In this document: positions 5,632 to 50,919 of the stretch, one piece after another
Numbering within the stretch: the first letter of the stretch is position 1
Layout: every line of letters starts with the position of its first letter
Origin: Podospora anserina
Lineage: Eukaryota
Reading direction: 5' to 3'
Length of the DNA: 64,000 bases
Assembly (NCBI GenBank): GCA_017654855.1
Contig: CM030332.1
Location: 5,890,001 to 5,954,000, forward strand
Made by a program: the position numbers and the translations under genes
Notes under the pieces: generated by a model
Databases searched by the model: none
Seen by the model: the letters and a program-made list of their open reading frames with translations, nothing else
Told to the model about the DNA's origin: nothing

Positions 5632-5833
5632 TTGTTGGAAAGCTCAACTAAGGAATCAGGAGCTCCACTGTAAAAACCCCCTGTTTATCTCAAACGGGCA
5701 TGACGGCGAGGTGCCCTCAGCCAATCGTTAGATTAGATAAGGACTAGCCGATCAGGAAGTGATCAGGATGATCGGGCCATGATATTCTATACACGTCAGA
5801 GAGGAAATATGCAGGTGGGAGATACTTTCTATA
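5632..5833 (-). repeat. Diverged, internally deleted inverted copy of part of the 209-2671 block
   Basis: 5632-5694 matches the reverse complement of ~2530-2599 (TGTTGGAAAGCTCAACTAAG...CTCCACTGTAAAAACCCCCTGTTTATCTCAAA). ~5785-5833 matches the reverse complement of ~2030-2080. Confidence 0.8.
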
Positions 5834-5983
5834 CACGTGCTGGCTGTAACCCGCCGCGGCGACACGGCGACATGGATACCTGCAGGGAAAAGACTATTTT
5901 AGAGCGCTGCGGTCATTAGCCATGTACAACGACGTGGGAGGCCGTATTTCGCACTACTTCAGGCATTGAACGATTGGAGACTG

Positions 5984-6210
5984 AAGAGGTAGGGAATCCG
6001 GACCTTCTCGAGGAACTCCAGAATATATATAACCTGCTTACGAAAAAAGGGGCTGTTCATGGGGATCCAAGGCTCCACAACTTTCTACGTGTTGATCAGA
6101 GGATCGTTGCTATCGACTTTGAGTTTTCCTAGCTTCTTCCCAGTGATATAACGAATGAGGATGAATTGGAGACCTTAAAGAGCGAGATTGAGAAACGGGA
6201 AAGGCAGGCA
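5984..6210 (+). pseudogene. Protein-kinase-like C-lobe fragment
   Basis: Manual translation ...KKGAVHGDPRLHNFLRVDQRIVAIDFEFS*... shows an HGD-x4-N catalytic loop and a DFE motif. It has an in-frame stop and no N-lobe. Confidence 0.6.
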
Positions 6211-6370
6211 CTGTCGTACAAAGATACCGTCATCGGGGTAGACCTATCAGAGCCTTAGCCCTGATCTCGGCGGACCAATCGAGCAGCATCTAGCGGTGCC
6301 AGTACTGTAAAATAGACATTAGGCTTGGCATTACCTGGTGGAATGGCGGCCATAATCTCGATATTATAGA

Positions 6371-6426
6371 GGGACCTGAAAGTTGTGTGGGGACCTGAAA
6401 GTTGTGGGGGGACCTAAAAGTTATTG
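6371..6426. repeat. 19-bp tandem repeat x3 (GGGACCTGAAAGTTGTGTG)
   Basis: Directly visible. Confidence 0.85.
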
Positions 6427-7149
6427 TTGGGGAGGAGGAAGAGAGGGGCATAGCAGCCTGGGGTGGTTTTGTCTCTGCCGTCCACATGGATCGCGTTTAG
6501 CAGCCCAGTCGCTCAGTAACCCAGCTATTGAATTATCAGGACGGTCAGGGCAGTAAATTCCGGGGTATCATGTGACTGGCACAGCAGGGGTATCAGGGTT
6601 ATCAGGGTCTAGGCATCGCCCGACCGACTTTAAAAGCGACATCGAACATCTGCAGCTTAATCAACACATTACCCGCCCTACAGCTTCTCATACTCCAATT
6701 ATAAGCACTTCAACCTGTGATACTGTGGATACGTGGCTGTTAGTCTTTCCAACACCAGCTGTGGTGCGAGCACGTGCAAACCGCTTAGCTGCAAGACCAA
6801 AAACTCCACCTGTTAAGTCGTGGCAATCGACTCAAAAAGGCGCCCCACAGCGGCCCGCCGCGTCGCGCCCAGAGATCTACTACGACAGGGGTCATATCCA
6901 GTCCATCCAACGTCCTTGACAATGTCACATACGGAGCTCATCTCGTCTGTTTCTAATCTCACACAAAATACCGAGCCAGAAAATGGTCAGCACACTGGAG
7001 GCGTTAGGGGCTGGTAGCCTTGGACGTCCCCTCTCAGTGCATACCCAATACAAAGCCTCTTCTGTGCGAACGAGTTGTTCTGTGATAAGCCATTGCACCG
7101 ATGCTAAGACGGGAAGTCTACCTTAGCCTTCCTTGGACAGGTTCTTGGT

Positions 7150-32130: not shown

Positions 32131-32226
32131 CCTGGTAGGATATTGAAACGATCGACGGGGGGCCGGCGGCAGTGGGTGTTAAATCGCTAATTATACCCAA
32201 TGCGGGGTCTGCCGCGTACGCGGTCG

Positions 32227-32598
32227 TGTGACGAACCCCTATCCAGAACCTCTGAAAGGGATACTGGTCGAAGGCACTTCTGAATAATCGTGGCTCGGTG
32301 CAGCTAAACAGTGCACAACAAGATGTCTCAATGTAAACACTAGATACCGTGAATACAAGCTTGAATTGCATACTGCGGAACTGTCTATCTACACCAGCCA
32401 GTTCCTCCGTATATATAGACCTAATTATCACCATTATCACCAGTGATAATGTCGATTATCACCCATTATCACCGAGGGCTGGTGATAATCGTGATTATCA
32501 CCCAGCGCCAGTGATAATCCAACCTTCCCCACTTTTCCGTTCCTTAGTGATTGGACGGGCCGCGCCCCGCGCGCCCCACTTATGTCAGGTTCGTGACA
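32227..32598 (-). repeat. 3' LTR
   Basis: Appears identical to 37276-37647; TG..CA termini with short terminal inverted repeats. Confidence 0.97.
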
Positions 32599-32603
32599 TG
32601 ATG

Positions 32604-32613
32604 CCCCTCCTCC
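32604..32613 (-). other. Polypurine tract (GGAGGAGGGG)
   Basis: Purine run 5 nt upstream of the 3' LTR on the minus strand. Confidence 0.8.
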
Positions 32614-32720
32614 AGGCCAACGTCCCGTTGGCTTGGTTATCGACTGTATACGCTCTTCTCGTCTCCCTTTTTCCCTTCGTAGGTCTTCCACCTTTATCCT
32701 TCAATGGCCCGGCTAACGCC

Positions 32721-33410
32721 ATGTCTATAGTAAAGCCTCCCTCGTCGTCTGCACAGTACCGTGCTAAACTGGCTCAGAATATTGCTGAGAACGGCTTCCT
32801 CGTTATGCCTTGCTCGTGGTGTGACTCGCAGGGGTTGACCTGCCGTATGATGGATAAGGTGAAGCGTTGTGAAGCTTGCGTACGTCGTGGTCGTTCGTGT
32901 GATGGCTCCGGCGTCCCCATCTCATCGTGTGAGTCTCTCGTCACCTCTTCTTCTTCTTTGCTGATCTTCTTTTAGTGGATAAGATCATGCGAGAGCAACG
33001 TCGTCTGCAAGAGGAAGAAAAAACGTGCCGAGACTCTTCTAGTCGAGTACCAATAGAAGGCTTCTGAGGCTTTGGCTCGTCTATCACGGGTCCGTCGCCA
33101 ACGCGAATTTCTTGTGGATAAGGGAGCCGTTATGGTCGCCCGTGGCCTCTCCTCTCTTGACGAGCTGGAGGCTGCCGAACGTACCGAGCAGGAGAGAGCT
33201 GCGCAGGCCGCGCAGGCTATCCCGTCGTCTAGCGACGCCTCTCCTCCTGATTCTGCTCCTCCGGGTCCTTCTGACTTCTCCTTCCTGGATCCTTCCTCAG
33301 GTTTCGACTGGCCACCTGCCCTTTCCCTGGATCCGGGCACGGCCGGTCCTTCCTTCCTGACCGCGCAGGATACTGCTAGTGGCGCGCCTTCCACTTCCCA
33401 AGGTGGTTGA
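32721..33410 (+). pseudogene. Antisense accessory ORF of the retrotransposon: Zn-cluster-like Cys motif + coiled coil, one intron; frameshift and stop in this copy
   Basis: MPCSWCDSQGLTC...RCEACVRRGRSCD; intron GTGAGT(32929)..TAG(32975). An extra A in the A-run at ~33020 and CAA TAG at ~33054 interrupt EEEKRAETLLVEYQ*KASEALARLSRVRRQ. Confidence 0.75.
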
Positions 33411-33452
33411 GACGCGTGGCAGTCTTTGTATTTGGGTCCCTTCACACCTTCC

Positions 33453-33578
33453 AACCTCGTAGTGTAGTGCGTAGCACGTCGGCTTCTTCTGTCGAAGGCG
33501 CGGGTTCGATTCCCGCCGGGGTTCTTCCGTGTCCAAGTTCATGGACACAGTCCTTGAACTTGGGCATGGTTTTTTTTT
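33453..33578 (+). ncRNA. Predicted Pol III unit A: tRNA-like cloverleaf (33453-33524) + 20-bp hairpin (33527-33569) + T9 terminator
   Basis: Stems AACCTCG/CGGGGTT, GTGT/GCAC, TCGGC/GTCGA and GCGGG/CCCGC; T-loop TTCGATT (B-box GGTTCGATTCC); hairpin CCGTGTCCAAGTTCA-T-GGAC/ACA/GTCC-T-TGAACTTGGGCATGG. Expression is not shown. Confidence 0.75.
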
Positions 33579-33640
33579 GTTTTGGCCGCCCCGTCGTGGT
33601 GTGCCCTCGACCTTCCCTACGGTGGTGGAAGCGTGTGGTG

Positions 33641-35592
33641 TTAGTTGGGCCTGGATTCCCTCGTACCTGCCAACCTTGTGGTGTAGCGTGCAGCACGTCG
33701 ACTACCACGTCGGAGGCGTAGGTTCGATTCCTGCTGAGGTTCTCCTGGCTCTGTCTCATAGCCGTCTGGCTGTGGGCCAGGGCCAGATCTTTTTACTTGC
33801 TTGGGTTTTGGCCGGTCCGGGTATCGTTGATGGAATTCCTTTTGCTTGTCTGGGCAGTTGAGGTGTGCCTGTGGTTCCCACGAGTTATCTGTAGCCGGAT
33901 ATCCTAACCAACTGACCAAATACTCCAATTGGCCTCTGTTGAACCGTGAATCCAGTATCTCTTCCACTTCGTACTCTTCTTCTTCGTCTTCCGCTGCTTC
34001 CTGCATATTGGCCTTGCTTGCCGGTGGTGCGGGCTCCAGAAGTGAGATGTGGAAAGTGTGTGACCGTAGACGCATCGTACTGGGTAGCTCCAGTTCGAAT
34101 GCCGTCTCCGATATCTTTCTTTTGACCTTGAACGGGCCCACTCTCCTGTGGTCCAGCTTCTTACTAGGTCTTTTGGTGCGTAAATTGCGTGTGGAAAGGA
34201 ATACCATGTCCCCCCCCTTAAGGCGAGGTCCCTCGAGCCTTTTGGTGTTATAGTATTTCCGCATCCTTTCCCTCACAAACTCCAGTTCTTGCTTGAGCTT
34301 GCCGTGGAGCATGTGCATCTTGTCTGCCTTGACCCCAGCCCTGGGCACCTCAACGTCTGGTCCCAGCCGTAGGTCTGCCTCATATCCAAAATTTGCGAAG
34401 AACGGTGTGGCTTTGGTCGTCTCTGTTGGCGATGTGTTGTATGCCAACTGTGCCGTAGGCAGCAGTTCAACCCAATCGTCCTGCTCGAAATTGATGTAAT
34501 TCCGTAGGTATTGTTCCACGATCTGGTTGAGCCGTTCCGTCTGACCGTCTGTCTGAGGGTGGTAGGCCGATGACGCCTTACTCACTACCCCTAGCCTCGT
34601 CATCAACGCTCTCCAAAACTTCGATACGAATTTGGTGTCGCGGTCCGTGATAAACTCTCTTGGCCATGTGTGTGTTGCTGTGACATGCCGTAGTACCACA
34701 TCCGCCAATTGCTCTGCCGACCAGGTCTCCTTATAAGGCAAGAAGTATGCCCACTTCGTGAGCCTGTCGACTACCGTCAATATACTGTCGTACTTGACGC
34801 CGGTTGCCGTGTCCTTAGACTCTGGTAGTTTGGTGATGAAGTCCATCGTGACTGAACTCCATGGCCGTTCTGCTACTGGTAGTGGCTCCAGAAATCCATA
34901 AGGCTTGTGCCTCGCAACCCTCGTTCTCTCGCACGTGTGGCATGACTGGATGGCTTCCTTGACGTCGTCCTTGATCCTTGGCCAGTCAAAGTGCTGCTTG
35001 ATCTTTTCCATGGTCTTTGCGATACCCATGTGTCCTCCGAGCTTTGACCTGTGAATCTCCGTCACCAGTGTCTTCCTGTCACCTGGCTTCACGTACGCTC
35101 GATTCTTATACCACAGTCTTCCCTGACTGTCTTTCCGGATGCCTTGTGGCTCCAGCTCTTCCTGCCAGTATTGCTCTGTGATATCGCTGCCCAACTTCCC
35201 TTGGTACTTGCTGGAAGTGGCCCTCTCGCGATACACTGCGCAACACTCCATCCACAGCTGCAGTAGATGTTTGAGAGTGCCATCTGGCGCCTCCTCAAGT
35301 AGTGGTGGTGACTCCCTGGGTGCATCCTTGTGGTGGTCGGCTCGCCGGCTAAGTGCGTCTGCCCTGGCGTTCTCCGAACCCTTCTTGTAGTTGATCTGGA
35401 AATTAAATTCCGAGAGAAACTCTGACCATCGTGTCTGCCGCGCGTTGAGGACCTTCGTGGTGGTAAAGTACCGCAGGTTCTTGTGGTCCGTATAGACCTG
35501 CACTTCGTACTTGGTGCCACTGAGGTATGGCCTCCACTCCTCGAACGCTTCGATGATGGCGAGTAGCTCCTTATCGTGGATTGGGTAGTTCT
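33641..35592 (-). CDS. pol: Truncated pol: RNase H C-terminal part, integrase (HHCC + DDE), chromodomain
   Basis: QNYPIHDKELLAIIEAFEEWRPYL, H...GGHMG...CHTC, VTMDFIT, ITDRDTKF, YHPQTDGQTER, EEYEVEEILDSR...YLVSWLGYP..NSWEP. Confidence 0.93.
33672..33794 (+). ncRNA. Predicted Pol III unit B: tRNA-like cloverleaf (33672-33742) + 19-bp hairpin (33745-33786) + T5 terminator
   Basis: Stems AACCTTG/TGAGGTT, GTGT/GCAC, TCGAC/GTCGG and GTAGG/CCTGC; T-loop TTCGATT; hairpin CTGGCTCTG-T-CTCATAGCC/GTCT/GGCTGTGGG-C-CAGGGCCAG; TTTTT at 33790-33794. Confidence 0.72.
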
Positions 35593-37218
35593 GACTGGCT
35601 GTGGTCTGCCCTCCTTGCCCACCTTGCGTACCGGCCAGTGGCAGTATAGCGACTTGCTCTGGTGGTGCTCCACACATCCGTGTGTAATACACTGGAACCA
35701 AGGTACTCTCCGGTGTTCCGGATGCCTGGGATGAAGTTGTGCCGTATCTCCCTCACAGGGTGTGTACCATATGAGCGTGGGTGTGTCTCCTGGCAACTTC
35801 GCGATCCCAATACTGGCGACCTTCTTGCCCTTCCAGTACTCTTCCCAGCTCTTGTACAAGAGCTTCACAGGCTGTGATATATCCTGTGAGACAGTGATTC
35901 TGTGCTTGCCGTACTGCCTCTCTGGTATCGTCCACCTGGTAGGTCCTTCCCATAGTGTGGGGTTGTCGTCCTTGGCGACCTCCGTAGTGATTTCTGCAGT
36001 GACTCGTGCCACTTGATCCTGCAGTGCCTGTATCTGAAGATCTCCTTCCTCAAGCTCCGCCTTTAGTTTTTCCACTGCTCCCTGCAGCTCCTGGAACCCT
36101 GTCTCTTGTCCGGCGTGCCAGTTGGAGTCTTCCTCGAAGCTTACCGCTTCGCCTTGCTGGTACCCGATGGCTGCGACCTCCACAACCCTCGGTCCCCTCG
36201 ATGTGGTGGTTGCTGCAATCTCCTTTTTCCATCCGAGTCTCTTGGGTGCCCTGCAGTCTTTCTTAAAGTGTCCTGCCTTGCCGCAGTTGAAACACTTGAG
36301 GTTGTCTCTGCCCTGGCCCCGGCCTTGTGGTCTCTGTTGCTGTATGGCGTCGACCTCCATCGGTCCTGCGTGTGTAGTGCCGGAGTAGCTAGTGCTGGGG
36401 TATCTTCTCTTTTGCTTATCGTTGGGACGGTTATTACCGAAGTGTCCCTTGTTGTTGTTGCCGTAGTGACCCCTACTGCCTCTCTTCTCCGTGCGCCGCT
36501 GGAACTGCCGATCGTCGATCCGAATGGCCATAGCGATATACTTGTCGATAGTGTCAGGCCTCGACTCCTTGTACAACTCATCCTTCACCTCTTCCTTGAG
36601 GCCGTTGTAGAAGAGCTGCATCAACCCCTCATCGTTGATAGTGCTACGCAGGCTGTCGATCTTGAATAGAGCCGCGTAATCAGCCGCTGAGCGCGTCTGA
36701 CGTAGGTTTGCGAGCCTCTCCTGCGCGCGCCTTGCCTCATCGTACTCCCCAAACACCTCCTTGAGCTTAGTCTCAAAGATACGATAGCTCTCGAAGCATT
36801 CCACGGTAATCTTCTCTTGGTCCTCCGGCTCCTGCTCGTAGTAGTTGTCGAGGATAGGCTCGAACCACGCGAGAGCCCTGTCCTTGAGTCTGGTAGCCGC
36901 GAAGATTACCTTTGACTCTTCGTTAGTGAACTGGTCTGGGTAGTAACGAAAATAGGTTTTGAGCTGGATTAAGAACCCTCCAAGCTCTGCCTTTCCTCCT
37001 CCATAGCGCTCCGGTGCCGGGAACTTGACGGTTGACTTGGGTGTGGTCGTGATGGCGATGATCTGCTCCCGGGTCTGCTGAGCCTCTTCCTCAAGCTCCC
37101 TAAGGCGCTTGACGACCTGTTCTGCAGTAGTGAGTGCAGGTCTGGTGCTGGTGGAAGGTCCCTCGCCGCCTGGGCTAGGCGGGACGCCTCCCATCTGAAT
37201 ATTCTCAGGTCCGGCCAT
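35089..37218 (-). CDS. gag: gag (capsid + CCHC zinc knuckle); C-terminus runs out of frame into RNase H DNA after the deletion
   Basis: PERYGG...FLIQLKTYF, QTRSAADYA, FYNGLKEEVKDEL, GPMEVD, CFNCGKAGHFKKDC. Confidence 0.92.
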   Translation of the reverse strand: MAGPENIQMGGVPPSPGGEGPSTSTRPALTTAEQVVKRLRELEEEAQQTREQIIAITTTPKSTVKFPAPERYGGGKAELGGFLIQLKTYFRYYPDQFTNEESKVIFAATRLKDRALAWFEPILDNYYEQEPEDQEKITVECFESYRIFETKLKEVFGEYDEARRAQERLANLRQTRSAADYAALFKIDSLRSTINDEGLMQLFYNGLKEEVKDELYKESRPDTIDKYIAMAIRIDDRQFQRRTEKRGSRGHYGNNNKGHFGNNRPNDKQKRRYPSTSYSGTTHAGPMEVDAIQQQRPQGRGQGRDNLKCFNCGKAGHFKKDCRAPKRLGWKKEIAATTTSRGPRVVEVAAIGYQQGEAVSFEEDSNWHAGQETGFQELQGAVEKLKAELEEGDLQIQALQDQVARVTAEITTEVAKDDNPTLWEGPTRWTIPERQYGKHRITVSQDISQPVKLLYKSWEEYWKGKKVASIGIAKLPGDTPTLIWYTPCEGDTAQLHPRHPEHRRVPWFQCITHGCVEHHQSKSLYCHWPVRKVGKEGRPQPVRTTQSTIRSYSPSSKRSRSGGHTSVAPSTKCRSIRTTRTCGTLPPRRSSTRGRHDGQSFSRNLISRSTTRRVRRTPGQTHLAGEPTTTRMHPGSHHHYLRRRQMALSNIYCSCGWSVAQCIARGPLPASTKGSWAAISQSNTGRKSWSHKASGKTVREDCGIRIERT

Positions 37219-37264
37219 GGTGGTGAAAAGACGCCTTCAACTTATCCGTGACAAAGTTGAAGTG

Positions 37265-37273
37265 AGTATGCAA
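37265..37273 (-). other. Self-priming-type primer binding site (TTGCATACT), complementary to AGTATGCAA in the LTR
   Basis: Lies 2 nt inside the 5' LTR boundary. Its exact 9-nt complement is at 37415-37423, about 35 nt downstream of the LTR TATATATA. Confidence 0.75.
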
Positions 37274-37275
37274 CG

Positions 37276-37647
37276 TGTGACGAACCCCTATCCAGAACCT
37301 CTGAAAGGGATACTGGTCGAAGGCACTTCTGAATAATCGTGGCTCGGTGCAGCTAAACAGTGCACAACAAGATGTCTCAATGTAAACACTAGATACCGTG
37401 AATACAAGCTTGAATTGCATACTGCGGAACTGTCTATCTACACCAGCCAGTTCCTCCGTATATATAGACCTAATTATCACCATTATCACCAGTGATAATG
37501 TCGATTATCACCCATTATCACCGAGGGCTGGTGATAATCGTGATTATCACCCAGCGCCAGTGATAATCCAACCTTCCCCACTTTTCCGTTCCTTAGTGAT
37601 TGGACGGGCCGCGCCCCGCGCGCCCCACTTATGTCAGGTTCGTGACA
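37276..37647 (-). repeat. 5' LTR
   Basis: Appears identical to 32227-32598. Confidence 0.97.
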
Positions 37648-38159
37648 GGTCGGGCTTCGGTGTGGTTATACGAGCGGGCCAAATCGCTTATTTTCTTCGC
37701 CGGAAACTAATTCTTTCAAGGCCAACATCGGGCCAGGATGCCTAGCGATCCGAGGGCTTCTGCCTAACGTCGCCGGCTTTTTATTCCGTGTCACATCCAG
37801 CGGGCGAGCTACCTCATGTGCCACAACTCCACTCTCGACTGCACAGCTGTACCACTGTAGGCGTGGCTGTCACATGCTGCGGCATATTCGAACGTGCGCG
37901 AAATACTGATCCGATGACCTTAGCTTAAAGCATCTTGGTGGGACGGTTTGACCAATTAGATAGATGTTTGTCGTTCTTTTCCACACCGCTGACGTGTATA
38001 ACTGCCGAATCGCGGCCATCATTGACCAGTTCTATCTTTCCCAAACCATCCCTTTTCGTGCTCGTCGTAGTCCTGATACACGACTGCTTTGCGGCATAAA
38101 CTATCAGGCGCTGATATGTAAGCTGCAGACCATCACCGCCTGCAAAGTCAGTACGATCT

Positions 38160-39938: not shown

Positions 39939-40680
39939 AATGCGACAGAGTCCCAAGGCGGTCAAGTTCCCAAGGCGGTCAAGTGAGCGAAATCGAGGTC
40001 ACTGGTGGAGTGGGCAGGATTTCGAAGTCACGAGCGGGGTGGGCGGGATTTGAGGTTACGTGCGAGGTAAGAGGGATTCGAGGTCGCCCTGGCAGGATAG
40101 CGAGATGCGAAGTTATAAGCGGGGGTAGGTGAGATTTAAGGTTTTGAGCGAGGTAAGAGAGATTCGAAGCCACAAATGTATAAACGAGATTCGAGGTCGC
40201 CCTGGCAGGATAGCGAGATGCGAAGTTATAAGCGGGGGTAGGCAGGATTCGAAGGTGGCGAGATTAAATGCGACAACTAGTAAGGTAGGGAACCTTCTCG
40301 CTTATTACGGCGGTAATGTATAAGTCCCAGGCGGGCGTGTAAATAAGTGAAACGGATAGGACGCCTTGTCGCTAAGTTTAAGGAATGGCCGCTTGGACTT
40401 ACGTCCAAATAGGTGCAAGCGGTGAGGTTCAACTCCATTGGCGGCAAGCATAGCGGAGGGTATTAATATTCCCAACCACACATTTTCTCGGGTTTATGCA
40501 AGTATATCCTCTGATGGGCGAGATTTTGAGTCACAAACAGGGTGGACGAGATCCGACGGGCGGGGTAGGTGAGATTAAATGCGACGACTAGCAAGGTAGG
40601 GAAAATTCTCGCTTACCACGGCGGTGACACTTTTCCCGGTTCAATGCAGAGCCCTTCCATTCAGGCAGCAGGACGTGGGC
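39049..40680 (-). repeat. Copy B of ~1.5-kb inverted duplication (with an extra ~115-bp internal segment)
   Basis: See 7150-8685. GATTCGAGGTCGCCCTGGCAGGATAGCGAG... occurs twice here. Confidence 0.97.
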
Positions 40681-50360: not shown

Positions 50361-50919
50361 GTAAAAAAGGGCGACCTTAGCCGTAAGCTTATCGACGCTT
50401 TCGATGTTAAGCTAGCCGAGGCCTAAAACTAAGCTTCAGGATAGACGTTTTATTTAGTATAAAAGAAATTAAATTATAAATAATAATCCTTCGAGGATTA
50501 TATATAAGTAATATAAAGCGTAAGCGACGTTCGTGGATTCAGGGCTAGGTAACGTATCGGCGTATACTAGATCGTGTGGTCGCCCCTTTATACCGGCTCC
50601 CAGACCTTCTCGCAGACGTTACCAATCTTCGTAGTTACCTCGCCATCCTACGATCGTAAGACCTAGTTGAGAGACGATTTAGTTTATTTAGCGGGGACGC
50701 CGAAGCCGTAACGACTTCGGAGCTATAACTTCAGCTTACGCTCTTCTATCCTTACTCTCCTATCCTAGCGCCATACTCCCAGAACTCATTCGGTCACTCC
50801 TCAAAACCCCTAATCTACAGATAGGTATGTTGGCTAGATTCGATCACCAATTAACCATCTTGTGGCTATGCAGCCCATACCTCGTAGCTTAAACGCCACT
50901 TTCGGCTACTAACCGATGT

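What the first reader, a model, noticed from the sequence alone, without database searches (positions are those of the whole stretch)
33453..33794. Retrotransposon carries two tandem tRNA-like + hairpin + oligo-T cassettes (TMER-like Pol III small-RNA genes)
Seen: two ~125-nt units on the strand opposite gag-pol, 219 bp apart. Each folds into a full cloverleaf (7-bp acceptor, 4-bp D, 5-bp anticodon, AGGC variable loop, 5-bp T stem) with an A-box-like sequence and a perfect B-box GGTTCGATTCC. Within 2-3 nt follows a 19-20-bp hairpin with a single mismatch, then a T5 or T9 run. The cloverleaves differ by pairing-preserving changes (T stem GCGGG/CCCGC vs GTAGG/CCTGC; acceptor CTCG/CGGG vs CTTG/TGAG). 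The two hairpins are unrelated in sequence but alike in length and position. The anticodon loops are non-canonical (TTCTTCT with pyrimidine 37; 6-nt TACCAC) and the D-loops lack GG, so these are not decoding tRNAs. Established: this layout matches the murine gammaherpesvirus 68 tRNA-miRNA RNAs, where RNase Z releases the hairpin, and Neurospora milR-4 is processed from a tRNA precursor. Inference: the element encodes its own Pol III small RNAs (milRNA-like guides, RNAi decoys or copy-number control), or uses the B-boxes as TFIIIC chromatin barriers. I am not aware of this being described in fungal LTR elements.
Basis: partly seen in the sequence, partly recalled or inferred. Interest (0 to 1): 0.93.

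Follow-up and report, generated by a model that had tools for sequence, protein, structure and literature searches.

The report
Retrotransposon-borne antisense tRNA-like hairpin cassettes
A young fungal LTR retrotransposon carries, on the strand opposite its genes, two diverged copies of a tRNA-shaped sequence followed by a long hairpin and a run of T, which look like small self-contained RNA genes that may make small RNAs against the element itself, although no expression data could be obtained.

Summary
Two tRNA-like sequences (33453-33524 and 33672-33742, + strand; Rfam 54.3 and 38.2 bits) are each followed within 2 nt by an 18-19-bp hairpin and a T9 or T5 run.

They lie inside a TSD-flanked chromovirus (32227-37647, minus strand) with identical 372-bp LTRs. 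This copy has lost protease and RT.

All wobble pairs in the hairpins are G-U on the + strand only. Every stem difference between the two cloverleaves keeps pairing. The four listed hairpin-1 variants in other strains and species keep or improve pairing.

Logan contigs show the block in three organism labels, with 0-3 units suggested. Among 80 metagenomic chromovirus loci, only one (L002) has the same layout. The nearest relatives (L006, L001) lack it.

Best reading: element-borne Pol III-type tRNA-like/pre-small-RNA units, similar to TMERs and milR-4. Transcription and processing are untested.

Published relatives are TRIMs with tRNA- or 5S-like LTRs and retroviral Pol III miRNAs, so this is a new variant rather than a new kind.

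The parts
32227..37647 (-). LTR retrotransposon (chromovirus), a deletion derivative lacking protease, RT and the first part of RNase H. It is flanked by the 5-bp target duplication GGTCG (32222-32226 and 37648-37652).
   Evidence: The terminal repeats are 100% identical, begin TG and end CA, and carry the TSD. Pfam finds gag, zf-CCHC, a partial RNase H, integrase, SH3_Tf2-1 and Chromo, but no RVT or protease. Full-length relatives align only from about residue 542-581 onward.
32227..32598 (-). 3' LTR (372 bp). The polypurine tract lies just inside it, at about 32599-32616 (sense strand GGAGGAGGGGCA).
37276..37647 (-). 5' LTR (372 bp). It contains TATATATA and, 43 nt further on, AGTATGCAA, which is complementary to the primer-binding region at 37265-37273.
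33641..35752 (-). pol remnant ORF: RNase H (partial), integrase, SH3 and chromodomain. The chromodomain ends at about 33824. The last ~60 codons read through the antisense of hairpin 2 and tRNA-like 2.
35089..37236 (-). gag ORF (Retrotrans_gag, CCHC knuckle) with an uncharacterised extension.
32721..33410 (+). Antisense gene (brtn-like position). Exon 1 is 32721-32928, the intron is 32929-32975 (GTGAGT..CTGAT..TAG) and exon 2 runs to the stop at 33408-33410. It encodes CX2CX6CX8CX2CX6C followed by a coiled coil. This copy carries one frameshift at the A6 run (33018-33023) and one in-frame TAG (33054-33056).
   Evidence: The gene is intact, with a conserved intron, in L006. The protein family has 149 representatives and six invariant Cys.
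33379..33452 (+). Upstream part of unit 1: the last ~30 nt of the antisense gene plus a 42-nt spacer. It is repeated at 33596-33671 as the upstream part of unit 2.
33453..33524 (+). tRNA-like 1: full cloverleaf, B box GGTTCGATTCC, anticodon loop UUCUUCU with C37.
33527..33569 (+). Hairpin 1: 19 bp with one U x U mismatch and 2 G-U pairs. Free energy is -29.9 kcal/mol on the + strand and -21.0 on the - strand.
33570..33578 (+). T9 run (candidate Pol III terminator of unit 1), followed by a duplicated piece of the pol C-terminal codons (33579-33600).
33672..33742 (+). tRNA-like 2: cloverleaf with a 6-nt anticodon loop and the same B box.
33745..33786 (+). Hairpin 2: 18 bp with one mismatch and 3 G-U pairs. 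Free energy is -31.0 kcal/mol on the + strand and -18.9 on the - strand.
33790..33794 (+). T5 run (candidate Pol III terminator of unit 2).

Best explanation
**What it is.** The two units are tandem, long-diverged copies of a tRNA-derived, self-contained small-RNA gene. It has become part of this chromovirus lineage. It sits in the short gap between the convergent 3' ends of pol and of the element's antisense Zn-cluster-like gene.

**Proposed working (inferred)**
1. TFIIIC binds the intact B box and the partial A box inside the tRNA-like part.
2. Pol III transcribes the + strand from just upstream of the cloverleaf through the hairpin and stops at the T run.
3. RNase P trims the 5' end. RNase Z cuts after the discriminator base and frees a ~45-nt hairpin with a U tail.
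4. Dicer and/or an Argonaute-associated nuclease turns the hairpin into ~20-nt RNAs, as shown for N. crassa milR-4 and the MHV68 TMERs.

The transcript is antisense to the element. Any such RNA is therefore perfectly complementary to the element's own genomic/pol RNA whatever its sequence. That would explain why hairpin shape is kept but hairpin sequence is not. The likely outcome is self-directed silencing: copy-number control, or a trigger the host uses.

**Shown:** anatomy, position inside the element, strand-specific conservation of pairing, and recurrence in relatives.

**Inferred:** Pol III transcription, RNase Z/Dicer processing, and the target.
For: - **Real tRNA-like folds.** Rfam scores are 54.3 and 38.2 bits. 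In the 3-sequence alignment A3, 98.4% of pair cells are paired and 7 pairs change on both sides. Only 3 of 500 shuffles reach this, and slid controls give 35-48% paired.
- **Pairing kept between the units.** Units 1 and 2 differ at 8 stem positions (my count from A3). All 8 keep pairing: one G-C to A-U double change and six through G-U. Loop positions and anticodon-loop length vary freely.
- **Same hairpin placement, unrelated sequence.** A hairpin starts 2-3 nt after the discriminator in all three units (window x2, L002), although the hairpin sequences are unrelated.
- **Strand asymmetry.** The three hairpins have 2, 3 and 4 G-U wobbles on the strand antisense to pol. None would be G-U on the sense strand. 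Free energies are -29.9/-31.0/-23.1 against -21.0/-18.9/-13.6 kcal/mol.
- **Hairpin-1 variants elsewhere.** The 4 stem variants listed in other strains and species (33546 C>T, 33553 C>T, 33554 T>G, 33567 T>C) all keep or create pairs on the + strand. 33554 T>G closes the only mismatch (table 3). Only 40 of 325 variants were shown.
- **T runs.** They directly follow both hairpins. The element has only 5 T>=5 runs on this strand. No TTTT occurs inside either window unit.
- **Age and spread.** The LTRs are identical while the units are ~28% diverged, so both units passed through many rounds of retrotransposition. The two-unit block is also present in organism B: record 10 spans both units (table 8).
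- **Same order in L002.** The order is antisense-gene stop, 37 nt, tRNA-like, hairpin, T runs, pol end. Its pol is 52-59% identical.
- **Pathway precedent in the same fungal order.** This is taken from passages of PMC3547838.
Against: - **No expression evidence.** No RNA run was listed and only DNA contigs could be laid.
- **Mostly absent from relatives.** 79 of 80 metagenomic chromovirus loci lack the cassette, including the closest, L006 and L001, where the antisense gene abuts pol directly. A joint in organism C (33421->33791) is compatible with a cassette-less family member. The cassette is therefore not needed for transposition.
- **Weak promoter and terminator features.** The A box lacks G18/G19. 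T5 is a weak terminator in yeasts (recalled). L002 has only T4 runs and one TTTT inside its hairpin arm.
- **Unit 2 fold.** It does not form the cloverleaf in its single-sequence MFE.
- **Bias in the wobble argument.** RIP-like C>T changes on the + strand in G-C pairs give G-U automatically, so part of the signal could be mutational bias. Only 3 independent sequences were available for covariation.
- **No outside target.** No trans target was found in the window or in the 80 loci.
Confidence: 0.4

Rival explanations
1. Passive passenger. A tRNA pseudogene or tRNA-derived SINE-like unit was inserted once into a master copy, duplicated by slippage or unequal recombination, and has since been carried along without any function.
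For: - Distribution is patchy: 1 of 80 metagenomic loci has it, and it is absent from the closest relatives L006 and L001.
- Unit number appears to vary, with joints skipping 226/229 nt or going back 196 nt (table 5).
- The anticodon loops are degenerate.
- Kojima proposes SINE insertion as the origin of tRNA-like LTRs (PMC10886601, section 4.2).
Against: - The units are ~28% diverged, yet both keep a complete cloverleaf (8 of 8 stem differences are pair-preserving), a perfect B box, a near-perfect 18-19-bp hairpin and a T run.
- The hairpin sequences are unrelated but the shape is kept. Wobbles lie on one strand only.
- There is no A-rich or simple-repeat SINE tail. The only direct repeats at the unit borders are the tandem duplication itself.
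- Summed contig depth over the tRNA-like bins is not higher than over the neighbouring chromodomain bins (table 2). The tool warns that this is a weak measure.
Confidence: 0.25
2. Chromatin or polymerase barrier. The two B boxes recruit TFIIIC (with or without Pol III). They act as a boundary or roadblock between the convergent pol and antisense-gene transcription units, or against heterochromatin that the chromodomain targets. RNA output would be incidental.
For: - The B box is identical in both window units (GGTTCGATTCC), and the T arm is the best conserved part.
- The cassettes sit exactly between two convergent genes.
- The element carries a chromodomain.
- tRNA genes and TFIIIC sites as barriers are established in yeasts (recalled, not checked here).
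Against: - It does not explain the conserved hairpin plus T run, or the strand-specific G-U pattern.
- Full-length sense RNA must pass through the site to reach the 3' LTR.
Confidence: 0.15
3. 3'-end processing module of the antisense mRNA. RNase P cleavage at the 5' end of the tRNA-like part would form the 3' end of the Pol II transcript of the antisense gene (mascRNA/MALAT1-like). This would stop the transcript running into pol and forming long dsRNA.
For: - The tRNA-like part starts 42 nt (window) and 37 nt (L002) after the antisense gene's stop codon, on the same strand.
- There is a weak Rfam match to mascRNA-menRNA, 22 bits.
Against: - The mascRNA match is far below the 42.5-bit cut-off.
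- No U-rich/A-rich triple-helix element lies upstream in the window.
- The second unit has no ORF in front of it.
- Relatives manage without the cassette.
- The antisense gene of this copy is itself broken.
Confidence: 0.1
4. Ordinary host tRNA genes that served as the integration target, or functional decoding tRNAs.
For: Some LTR elements integrate next to tRNA genes (recalled). ARAGORN labels unit 1 tRNA-Lys(CTT).
Against: - Both units lie ~850-1150 bp inside the element, between identical LTRs with a clean 5-bp TSD.
- Unit 1 has a pyrimidine at position 37. Unit 2 has a 6-nt anticodon loop. Neither D-loop has G18G19.
- Copies in organism B show a further 1-nt loss in the unit-1 anticodon loop (table 4).
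Confidence: 0.02

Closest known systems
MHV68 TMERs and Neurospora crassa milR-4 (tRNA-linked pre-miRNA/milRNA made by Pol III and RNase Z)
   Same: A tRNA or tRNA-like moiety is directly followed by a pre-small-RNA hairpin and a T run. In the known cases RNase Z cleavage at the tRNA 3' end creates the hairpin's 5' end (PMC3547838 passages). milR-4 is from a fungus of the same order as the nearest named pol relatives.
   Different: - milR-4 lies between two genuine tRNA-Ala genes in host DNA, not in a transposon.
- TMERs belong to a herpesvirus.
- Here the unit is carried antisense inside an LTR retrotransposon.
- Transcription and processing are untested here.
TRIMp3 elements: Cassandra (5S), Helenus (tRNA-like) and Ajax (5S), i.e. 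LTR retrotransposons with Pol III gene-derived sequences
   Same: These are LTR retroelements that carry tRNA- or 5S-derived sequences with conserved A/B boxes and are not expected to encode a working tRNA. Fungal members exist (PMC10886601 abstract and sections 3-4).
   Different: - There, the small-RNA-like sequence is inside the LTRs of 0.3-1.3-kb non-coding TRIMs and is thought to drive the element's own transcription.
- Here it is in the internal region of a 5.4-kb gag/integrase-coding chromovirus, on the opposite strand, with its own hairpin and terminator.
- Fungal Helenus was reported from Pucciniales and a few Agaricomycetes and linked to Copia partners, not from Sordariomycete chromoviruses.
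Pol III-transcribed miRNAs of retroviruses (bovine leukemia virus, simian/bovine foamy viruses)
   Same: A reverse-transcribing element carries compact Pol III hairpin units, so small RNAs can be made without cutting the genomic RNA (search listing and abstract starts only: PMC3993851, PMC7693620).
   Different: - Those units are sense-oriented and lack a tRNA-like leader (recalled).
- They act on host targets in animals.
- Here the units are antisense, led by a tRNA-like part, and in a fungal retrotransposon.
brtn, the antisense gene of Boty-like Gypsy elements of Botrytis cinerea
   Same: It is an extra gene on the antisense strand of a fungal Gypsy element (known only from the reference title and a methods passage in PMC8365987).
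   Different: Homology to the antisense gene found here was not tested, because no brtn sequence was available. No tRNA-like cassette is mentioned in the passages seen.

Membership tests
Decoding tRNA gene | Cloverleaf with 7/4/5/5-bp stems | tested here: met
Decoding tRNA gene | 7-nt anticodon loop with a purine at position 37, and G18G19 in the D-loop | tested here: not met
   Unit 1 has C37. Unit 2 has a 6-nt loop. Neither D-loop has GG.
tRNA-linked pre-miRNA unit (TMER / milR-4 type) | tRNA-like moiety with internal Pol III promoter boxes | tested here: met
   The B box GGTTCGATTCC is exact in both units. The A box is only partial. The consensus motifs are recalled, and are partly supported by PMC10886601 section 3.5.
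tRNA-linked pre-miRNA unit (TMER / milR-4 type) | A stable hairpin of pre-miRNA size directly 3' of the tRNA-like part, then an oligo-T terminator | tested here: met
   L002 also shows this.
tRNA-linked pre-miRNA unit (TMER / milR-4 type) | Pol III transcription, RNase Z cleavage, and small RNAs loaded in Argonaute | not testable with these tools
   No RNA run was available. Only DNA contigs were laid.
TRIMp3 (Cassandra/Helenus/Ajax) | The small-RNA-gene-derived sequence lies in the LTRs | tested here: not met
   The only tRNA matches in the window lie in the internal region. None falls in 32227-32598 or 37276-37647.
TRIMp3 (Cassandra/Helenus/Ajax) | Short non-coding TRIM (about 0.3-1.3 kb) | tested here: not met
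   The element is 5421 bp and has gag, integrase and a chromodomain.
tRNA-derived SINE | tRNA-related head with A/B boxes | tested here: met
tRNA-derived SINE | LINE-related or A-rich/simple-repeat tail, own target duplications, and dispersed free-standing copies | tested here: inconclusive
   No A-rich tail is present; each unit ends in a T run. The repeats at the borders are the tandem duplication of flanking gene ends. Free-standing copies could not be surveyed because no genome is held. Loose ends at 33743 in X1 and X10 show copies that diverge right after the tRNA-like part (table 7).
Chromovirus (Ty3/Gypsy with chromodomain) | LTRs with TG..CA ends and a TSD, plus gag, RNase H, integrase and a C-terminal chromodomain | tested here: met
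   The closest named pol relatives are from Thermothelomyces thermophilus and Chaetomium globosum.
Chromovirus (Ty3/Gypsy with chromodomain) | Protease and reverse transcriptase (autonomy) | tested here: not met
   Pfam finds no RVT or protease match. Relatives align only from about residue 542-581 onward.
mascRNA-type 3'-end processing element | Match to the mascRNA/menRNA model and an upstream triple-helix (U-rich/A-rich) element | tested here: not met
   The match is 22 bits against a 42.5-bit cut-off. No such element lies in the 42 nt upstream.

The most novel reading that the evidence does not exclude
A fungal chromovirus lineage encodes its own Pol III genes. Each tRNA-like leader would be cut off by RNase Z to release a short-hairpin RNA, which is diced into guides perfectly complementary to the element's own RNA. 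This would be a built-in, sequence-independent copy-number governor (or a silencing decoy). It would be the first tRNA-shRNA cassette known in any retrotransposon, and a transposon-borne counterpart of herpesviral TMERs and retroviral Pol III miRNAs.
Probability: 0.3. Interest if true: 0.85.

Novelty: new variant of a known kind. Interest (0 to 1): 0.68.

Why it matters
- **A transposon carrying small-RNA genes as cargo.** If the units are transcribed, this would be a retrotransposon carrying complete Pol III small-RNA genes. It would link three separate themes: tRNA-primed miRNA-like biogenesis in Sordariales (milR-4), Pol III miRNAs of retroviruses, and Pol III-promoter-bearing TRIMs.
- **A route to new milRNA loci.** It offers a concrete way for new tRNA-linked milRNA loci to be seeded around a fungal genome.
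- **A testable case of self-regulation.** A mobile element may be regulating itself, or baiting the host RNAi machinery.
- **An annotation problem.** Each copy adds two false tRNA predictions.
- **The antisense gene.** The conserved antisense Zn-cluster-like gene next to the cassettes is a second under-described feature of this chromovirus clade.

Tried and rejected
- **Whole genome.** None is held for this window. Copy census, host tRNA comparison and a search for free-standing units were impossible.
- **Sequencing runs.** No RNA holder was listed among 17 runs in 6 studies, so expression could not be examined. Parts of the stretch without cover in organisms B and C (32599-33190) are not interpreted.
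- **Viral-contig scan with pol.** 85 pattern matches, none confirmed.
- **Earlier-findings look-ups.** Searches by place, sequence and words all returned nothing.
- **Antisense translation of the cassette (33445-33759, -) as a protein query.** No hit.
- **C-termini of 17 close pol homologues.** 0 of 17 show a peptide that would betray an antisense tRNA-like sequence. This is uninformative where the ORF stops earlier.
- **Family-specific covariance model R1 over the window plus 80 loci.** Only its 3 training sequences scored. Two weak hits (window 50372-50443 at 13.8 bits; L046 at 10.8 bits) are regarded as chance.
- **Trans targets of the four hairpin arms.** None of >=15 nt in the window. One 15-nt match in L013 (E 1.1) is regarded as chance.
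- **Zn_clus assignment of the antisense protein.** Pfam gives only E 0.046, below the cut-off. The Zn2Cys6 reading rests on Cys spacing alone.
- **Primer idea.** I considered that the tRNA-like RNA could prime reverse transcription. I rejected this because the PBS has no TGG and instead matches the LTR itself.
- **Integration-target idea.** Rejected, because the units lie inside the TSD-flanked element.
- **One literature search failed on a too-short term.**
- **Literature searches for a prior description.** Searches found no paper describing tRNA-like-plus-hairpin units inside fungal LTR elements. The library lacks most subscription journals. The supplements of PMC10886601 (Table S1, the list of tRNA-like LTR families) could not be read and may bear on this.
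Full report
**1. What is there**

The window holds exactly two tRNA-like sequences, both on the + strand, at 33453-33524 and 33672-33742. ARAGORN finds them. Rfam's tRNA model scores them at 54.3 and 38.2 bits against a cut-off of 29, and these are the only two gathering-level Rfam hits in 64 kb.

The covariance alignments show the full cloverleaf with the T-loop/B box GGTTCGATTCC.
- Unit 1 has the anticodon loop UUCUUCU, with a pyrimidine at position 37.
- Unit 2 has a 6-nt anticodon loop.
- Neither D-loop has GG.

They therefore cannot be decoding tRNAs.

Two nucleotides after each discriminator base a hairpin begins.
- Hairpin 1 (33527-33569): 19 bp, one U x U mismatch, -30.6 kcal/mol, z -7.9.
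- Hairpin 2 (33745-33786): 9+9 bp, one mismatch, -32.5 kcal/mol, z -6.5.

T9 (33570-33578) and T5 (33790-33794) follow. The element's + strand has only five T>=5 runs, and the whole window has one T>=9 run on that strand.

Hairpin 2 has 18 pairs. The A box is partial. Unit 2 does not form the cloverleaf in its own MFE fold.

**2. Context**

*The element.* A 374-nt exact repeat (32225-32598 and 37274-37647) gives 372-bp TG...CA LTRs flanked by the 5-bp duplication GGTCG. A polypurine tract abuts the LTR at 32599, so the element (32227-37647, 5421 bp) reads on the minus strand.

Pfam finds gag and a CCHC knuckle in one ORF. A second ORF holds the C-terminal two-thirds of RNase H, integrase, the Tf2-type SH3 domain and a chromodomain. 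There is no protease or RT. Full-length relatives align only from about residue 542-581. This is a deletion derivative that nevertheless transposed recently, since its LTRs are identical.

The closest named pol relatives are from Thermothelomyces thermophilus and Chaetomium globosum (65-67% identity). That points to Sordariales.

*The antisense gene.* The cassettes lie in the 3' internal region, antisense to pol. The last ~60 codons of the pol ORF simply read through the antisense of hairpin 2 and tRNA-like 2.

- ATG at 32721.
- A 47-nt intron with GTGAGT...CTGAT...TAG at 32929-32975.
- Stop at 33408-33410.

In this copy the gene has one frameshift (A6 run at 33018) and one in-frame TAG (33054).

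It is intact, with the intron conserved, in metagenome locus L006 (exon 1 is 81% identical). Weaker antisense matches lie downstream of pol in L004, L013, L063, L007, L021 and L031.

The exon-1 peptide finds 149 cluster representatives, mostly 160-240 aa. All of those looked up are unnamed or 'uncharacterized'. They share six invariant Cys spaced CX2CX6CX8CX2CX6C, followed by a coiled coil. Pfam Zn_clus reaches only E 0.046.

An antisense gene, brtn, is on record for Boty-like Gypsy elements of Botrytis (reference title and methods passage in PMC8365987). I could not test homology to it.

*Position of the units.* tRNA-like 1 starts 42 nt after the antisense gene's stop.

The two units are ~220-bp tandem copies.
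- The 75 nt upstream of unit 2 repeats the end of the antisense gene plus the spacer.
- The ~20 nt after the T9 run repeats the pol C-terminal codons (GTTTTGGCCG...).
- Identity is 71.8% over 149 nt, but the hairpins do not align.

The ancestral state was therefore one unit filling the gap between two convergent genes.

**3. Is the structure maintained, and on which strand?**

*Cloverleaf.* I aligned the three available tRNA-like sequences: the two window units and L002. 98.4% of pair cells are standard pairs and 7 of 21 pairs change on both sides. Only 3 of 500 shuffles reach this, and slid controls give 35-48% pairing.

Between units 1 and 2 I count 8 differing stem positions from the same alignment. 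All 8 keep pairing. The anticodon loop changes in both sequence and length.

*Hairpins.* The three hairpins carry 2, 3 and 4 G-U wobbles on the strand antisense to pol. None would be G-U on the sense strand. Stabilities are -29.9/-31.0/-23.1 kcal/mol on the antisense strand and -21.0/-18.9/-13.6 on the sense strand.

*Variants elsewhere.* Of the hairpin-1 stem variants listed from other strains and species, 4 of 4 keep or create pairs on the + strand. These are 33546 C>T, 33553 C>T, 33567 T>C and 33554 T>G. The last closes the single mismatch and is seen in X3, X10 and X11 (table 3). Only 40 of 325 differences were printed.

*Caveat.* Differences among copies are transition-rich, with C>T and G>A dominating (table 1). 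This looks like RIP, and C>T on the + strand in a G-C pair yields G-U automatically.

**4. Relatives**

*Logan contigs.* Contigs of four runs were laid at >=80% likeness. The region 33200-34200 (end of the antisense gene, the cassettes and the chromodomain) is present in organism labels A (X1, X3), B (X10) and C (X11), in 55, 51, 192 and 43 pieces respectively. One 504-nt contig of organism B spans both units (record 10).

Joints suggest several variants.
- One-unit forms: skips of 226 nt (X11) or 229 nt (X1 and X3).
- A possible extra unit: 'goes back 196' in X11.
- A possibly cassette-less form: 33421->33791 in X11, with the sequence between 'not known'.

*Metagenome loci.* A metagenome scan with a pol alignment returned 80 chromovirus loci (588 of 592 candidate stretches confirmed, best 80 kept).
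- ARAGORN finds a tRNA-like sequence in 1 of 80.
- Rfam at E<=1 on the 8 closest loci finds the same one.
- The family model R1 finds no other.

That locus is L002. It has a 45.2-bit tRNA-like sequence antisense to pol, 37 nt after its antisense gene's stop. A 16-bp hairpin follows 3 nt later, then T4CCCT4GT4, then the pol end.

*Where the cassette is absent.* L006 (69% pol identity) and L001 (58%) have the antisense gene abutting or overlapping pol with no room for a cassette.

*Tree.* In an integrase-chromodomain tree of 21 sequences, the window, L006, L002, L001 and L003 form a clade with support 1.0. The inner nodes are unresolved, with support 0.26-0.30 (identities).

The distribution needs either one gain plus one or two losses, or two gains at the same spot.

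**5. Mechanism**

The most economical reading is that each unit is a Pol III gene. It would have an internal promoter in the tRNA-like part and a terminator at the T run. RNase Z would cut after the discriminator and release a U-tailed ~45-nt hairpin, which enters the milRNA/siRNA pathway.

This route has been demonstrated for N. crassa milR-4 (Pol III ChIP, ML-60218, RNase Z knock-down; passages of PMC3547838). The authors liken it to the MHV68 tRNA-miRNA genes.

Because the units are antisense to the element, any product is perfectly complementary to the element's own RNA. This fits selection for shape without selection for sequence. No other target was found in the window or the loci.

I put 0.4 on this full chain. 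I put roughly 0.65 on the weaker claim that a structured + strand RNA is made and matters to the element.

Rivals:
- A passive SINE-like passenger (0.25).
- A TFIIIC/B-box barrier between convergent genes or against heterochromatin (0.15).
- An RNase P-defined 3' end for the antisense mRNA (0.1). Its mascRNA match is only 22 bits against a 42.5-bit cut-off, and there is no triple-helix element.
- True tRNA genes or an integration target (rejected).

**6. Comparison and novelty**

LTR elements carrying Pol III-gene-derived sequences are known: Cassandra (5S), Helenus (tRNA-like; fungi, animals and Selaginella) and Ajax. In these the sequence lies in the LTRs of short non-coding TRIMs and is thought to promote the element's own transcription (PMC10886601 abstract and sections 3-4).

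Retroviruses with Pol III miRNAs are also known (listing only).

What I did not find in four literature searches is a coding LTR retrotransposon with an internal, antisense, tRNA-like + hairpin + terminator unit. I therefore rate it a new variant of known kinds.

Supplementary tables of PMC10886601 could not be read and might list related cases.

Noticed in passing
window 32721-33410 (+); L006 1010-1629 (-); L001 ~5770-6320 (-); L002 ~6120-6590 (-): A conserved antisense gene of this chromovirus clade. It encodes a small protein (~180-220 aa in relatives) with an invariant CX2CX6CX8CX2CX6C motif (Zn2Cys6-like spacing), a coiled coil, and one short conserved intron. It is broken in the window copy by a frameshift and a stop. 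It may correspond to the published antisense gene brtn of Boty elements; I did not test this.
   Followed up: partly
window 32227-37647: The element lacks protease, RT and the first part of RNase H, yet has 100% identical LTRs and an intact 5-bp TSD. A recent insertion must therefore have been mobilised in trans by an autonomous relative.
   Followed up: yes
window 37265-37273 and the 5' LTR (about 37415-37423): The primer-binding region has no TGG. Instead, 9 nt (TTGCATACT on the sense strand) are complementary to AGTATGCAA in the LTR, 43 nt after a TATATATA box. This suggests Tf1-like self-priming rather than a tRNA primer.
   Followed up: partly
window 32424-32518 and 37473-37567 (both LTRs); also the L006 LTR ~1850-1930: A dense array of inverted repeats built from TGATAA/TTATCA (GATA-like) motifs in the U3 part of the LTR. 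Rfam gives a sub-threshold mir-36 match here (20.8 bits against a cut-off of 48), which I regard as an artefact of the palindromes.
   Followed up: no
window 32961-33184: Contigs of X1 and X3 join 32960 to 33185, skipping 224 nt whose ends are CT..AC on the + strand, that is GT..AG on the element's sense strand. This could be a copy made from a spliced genomic RNA, or a plain deletion. It removes most of exon 2 of the antisense gene.
   Followed up: no
table 1, all four runs: Differences among family copies are dominated by C>T and G>A (for example 50 and 46 of 165 places in X1). Several loose ends run into AT-rich sequence. This is consistent with RIP acting on the family.
   Followed up: no
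window 40068-40136 and 40181-40249: Two 69-nt direct repeats, 113 bp apart and 91% identical, lie outside the element. They are unexplained.
   Followed up: no
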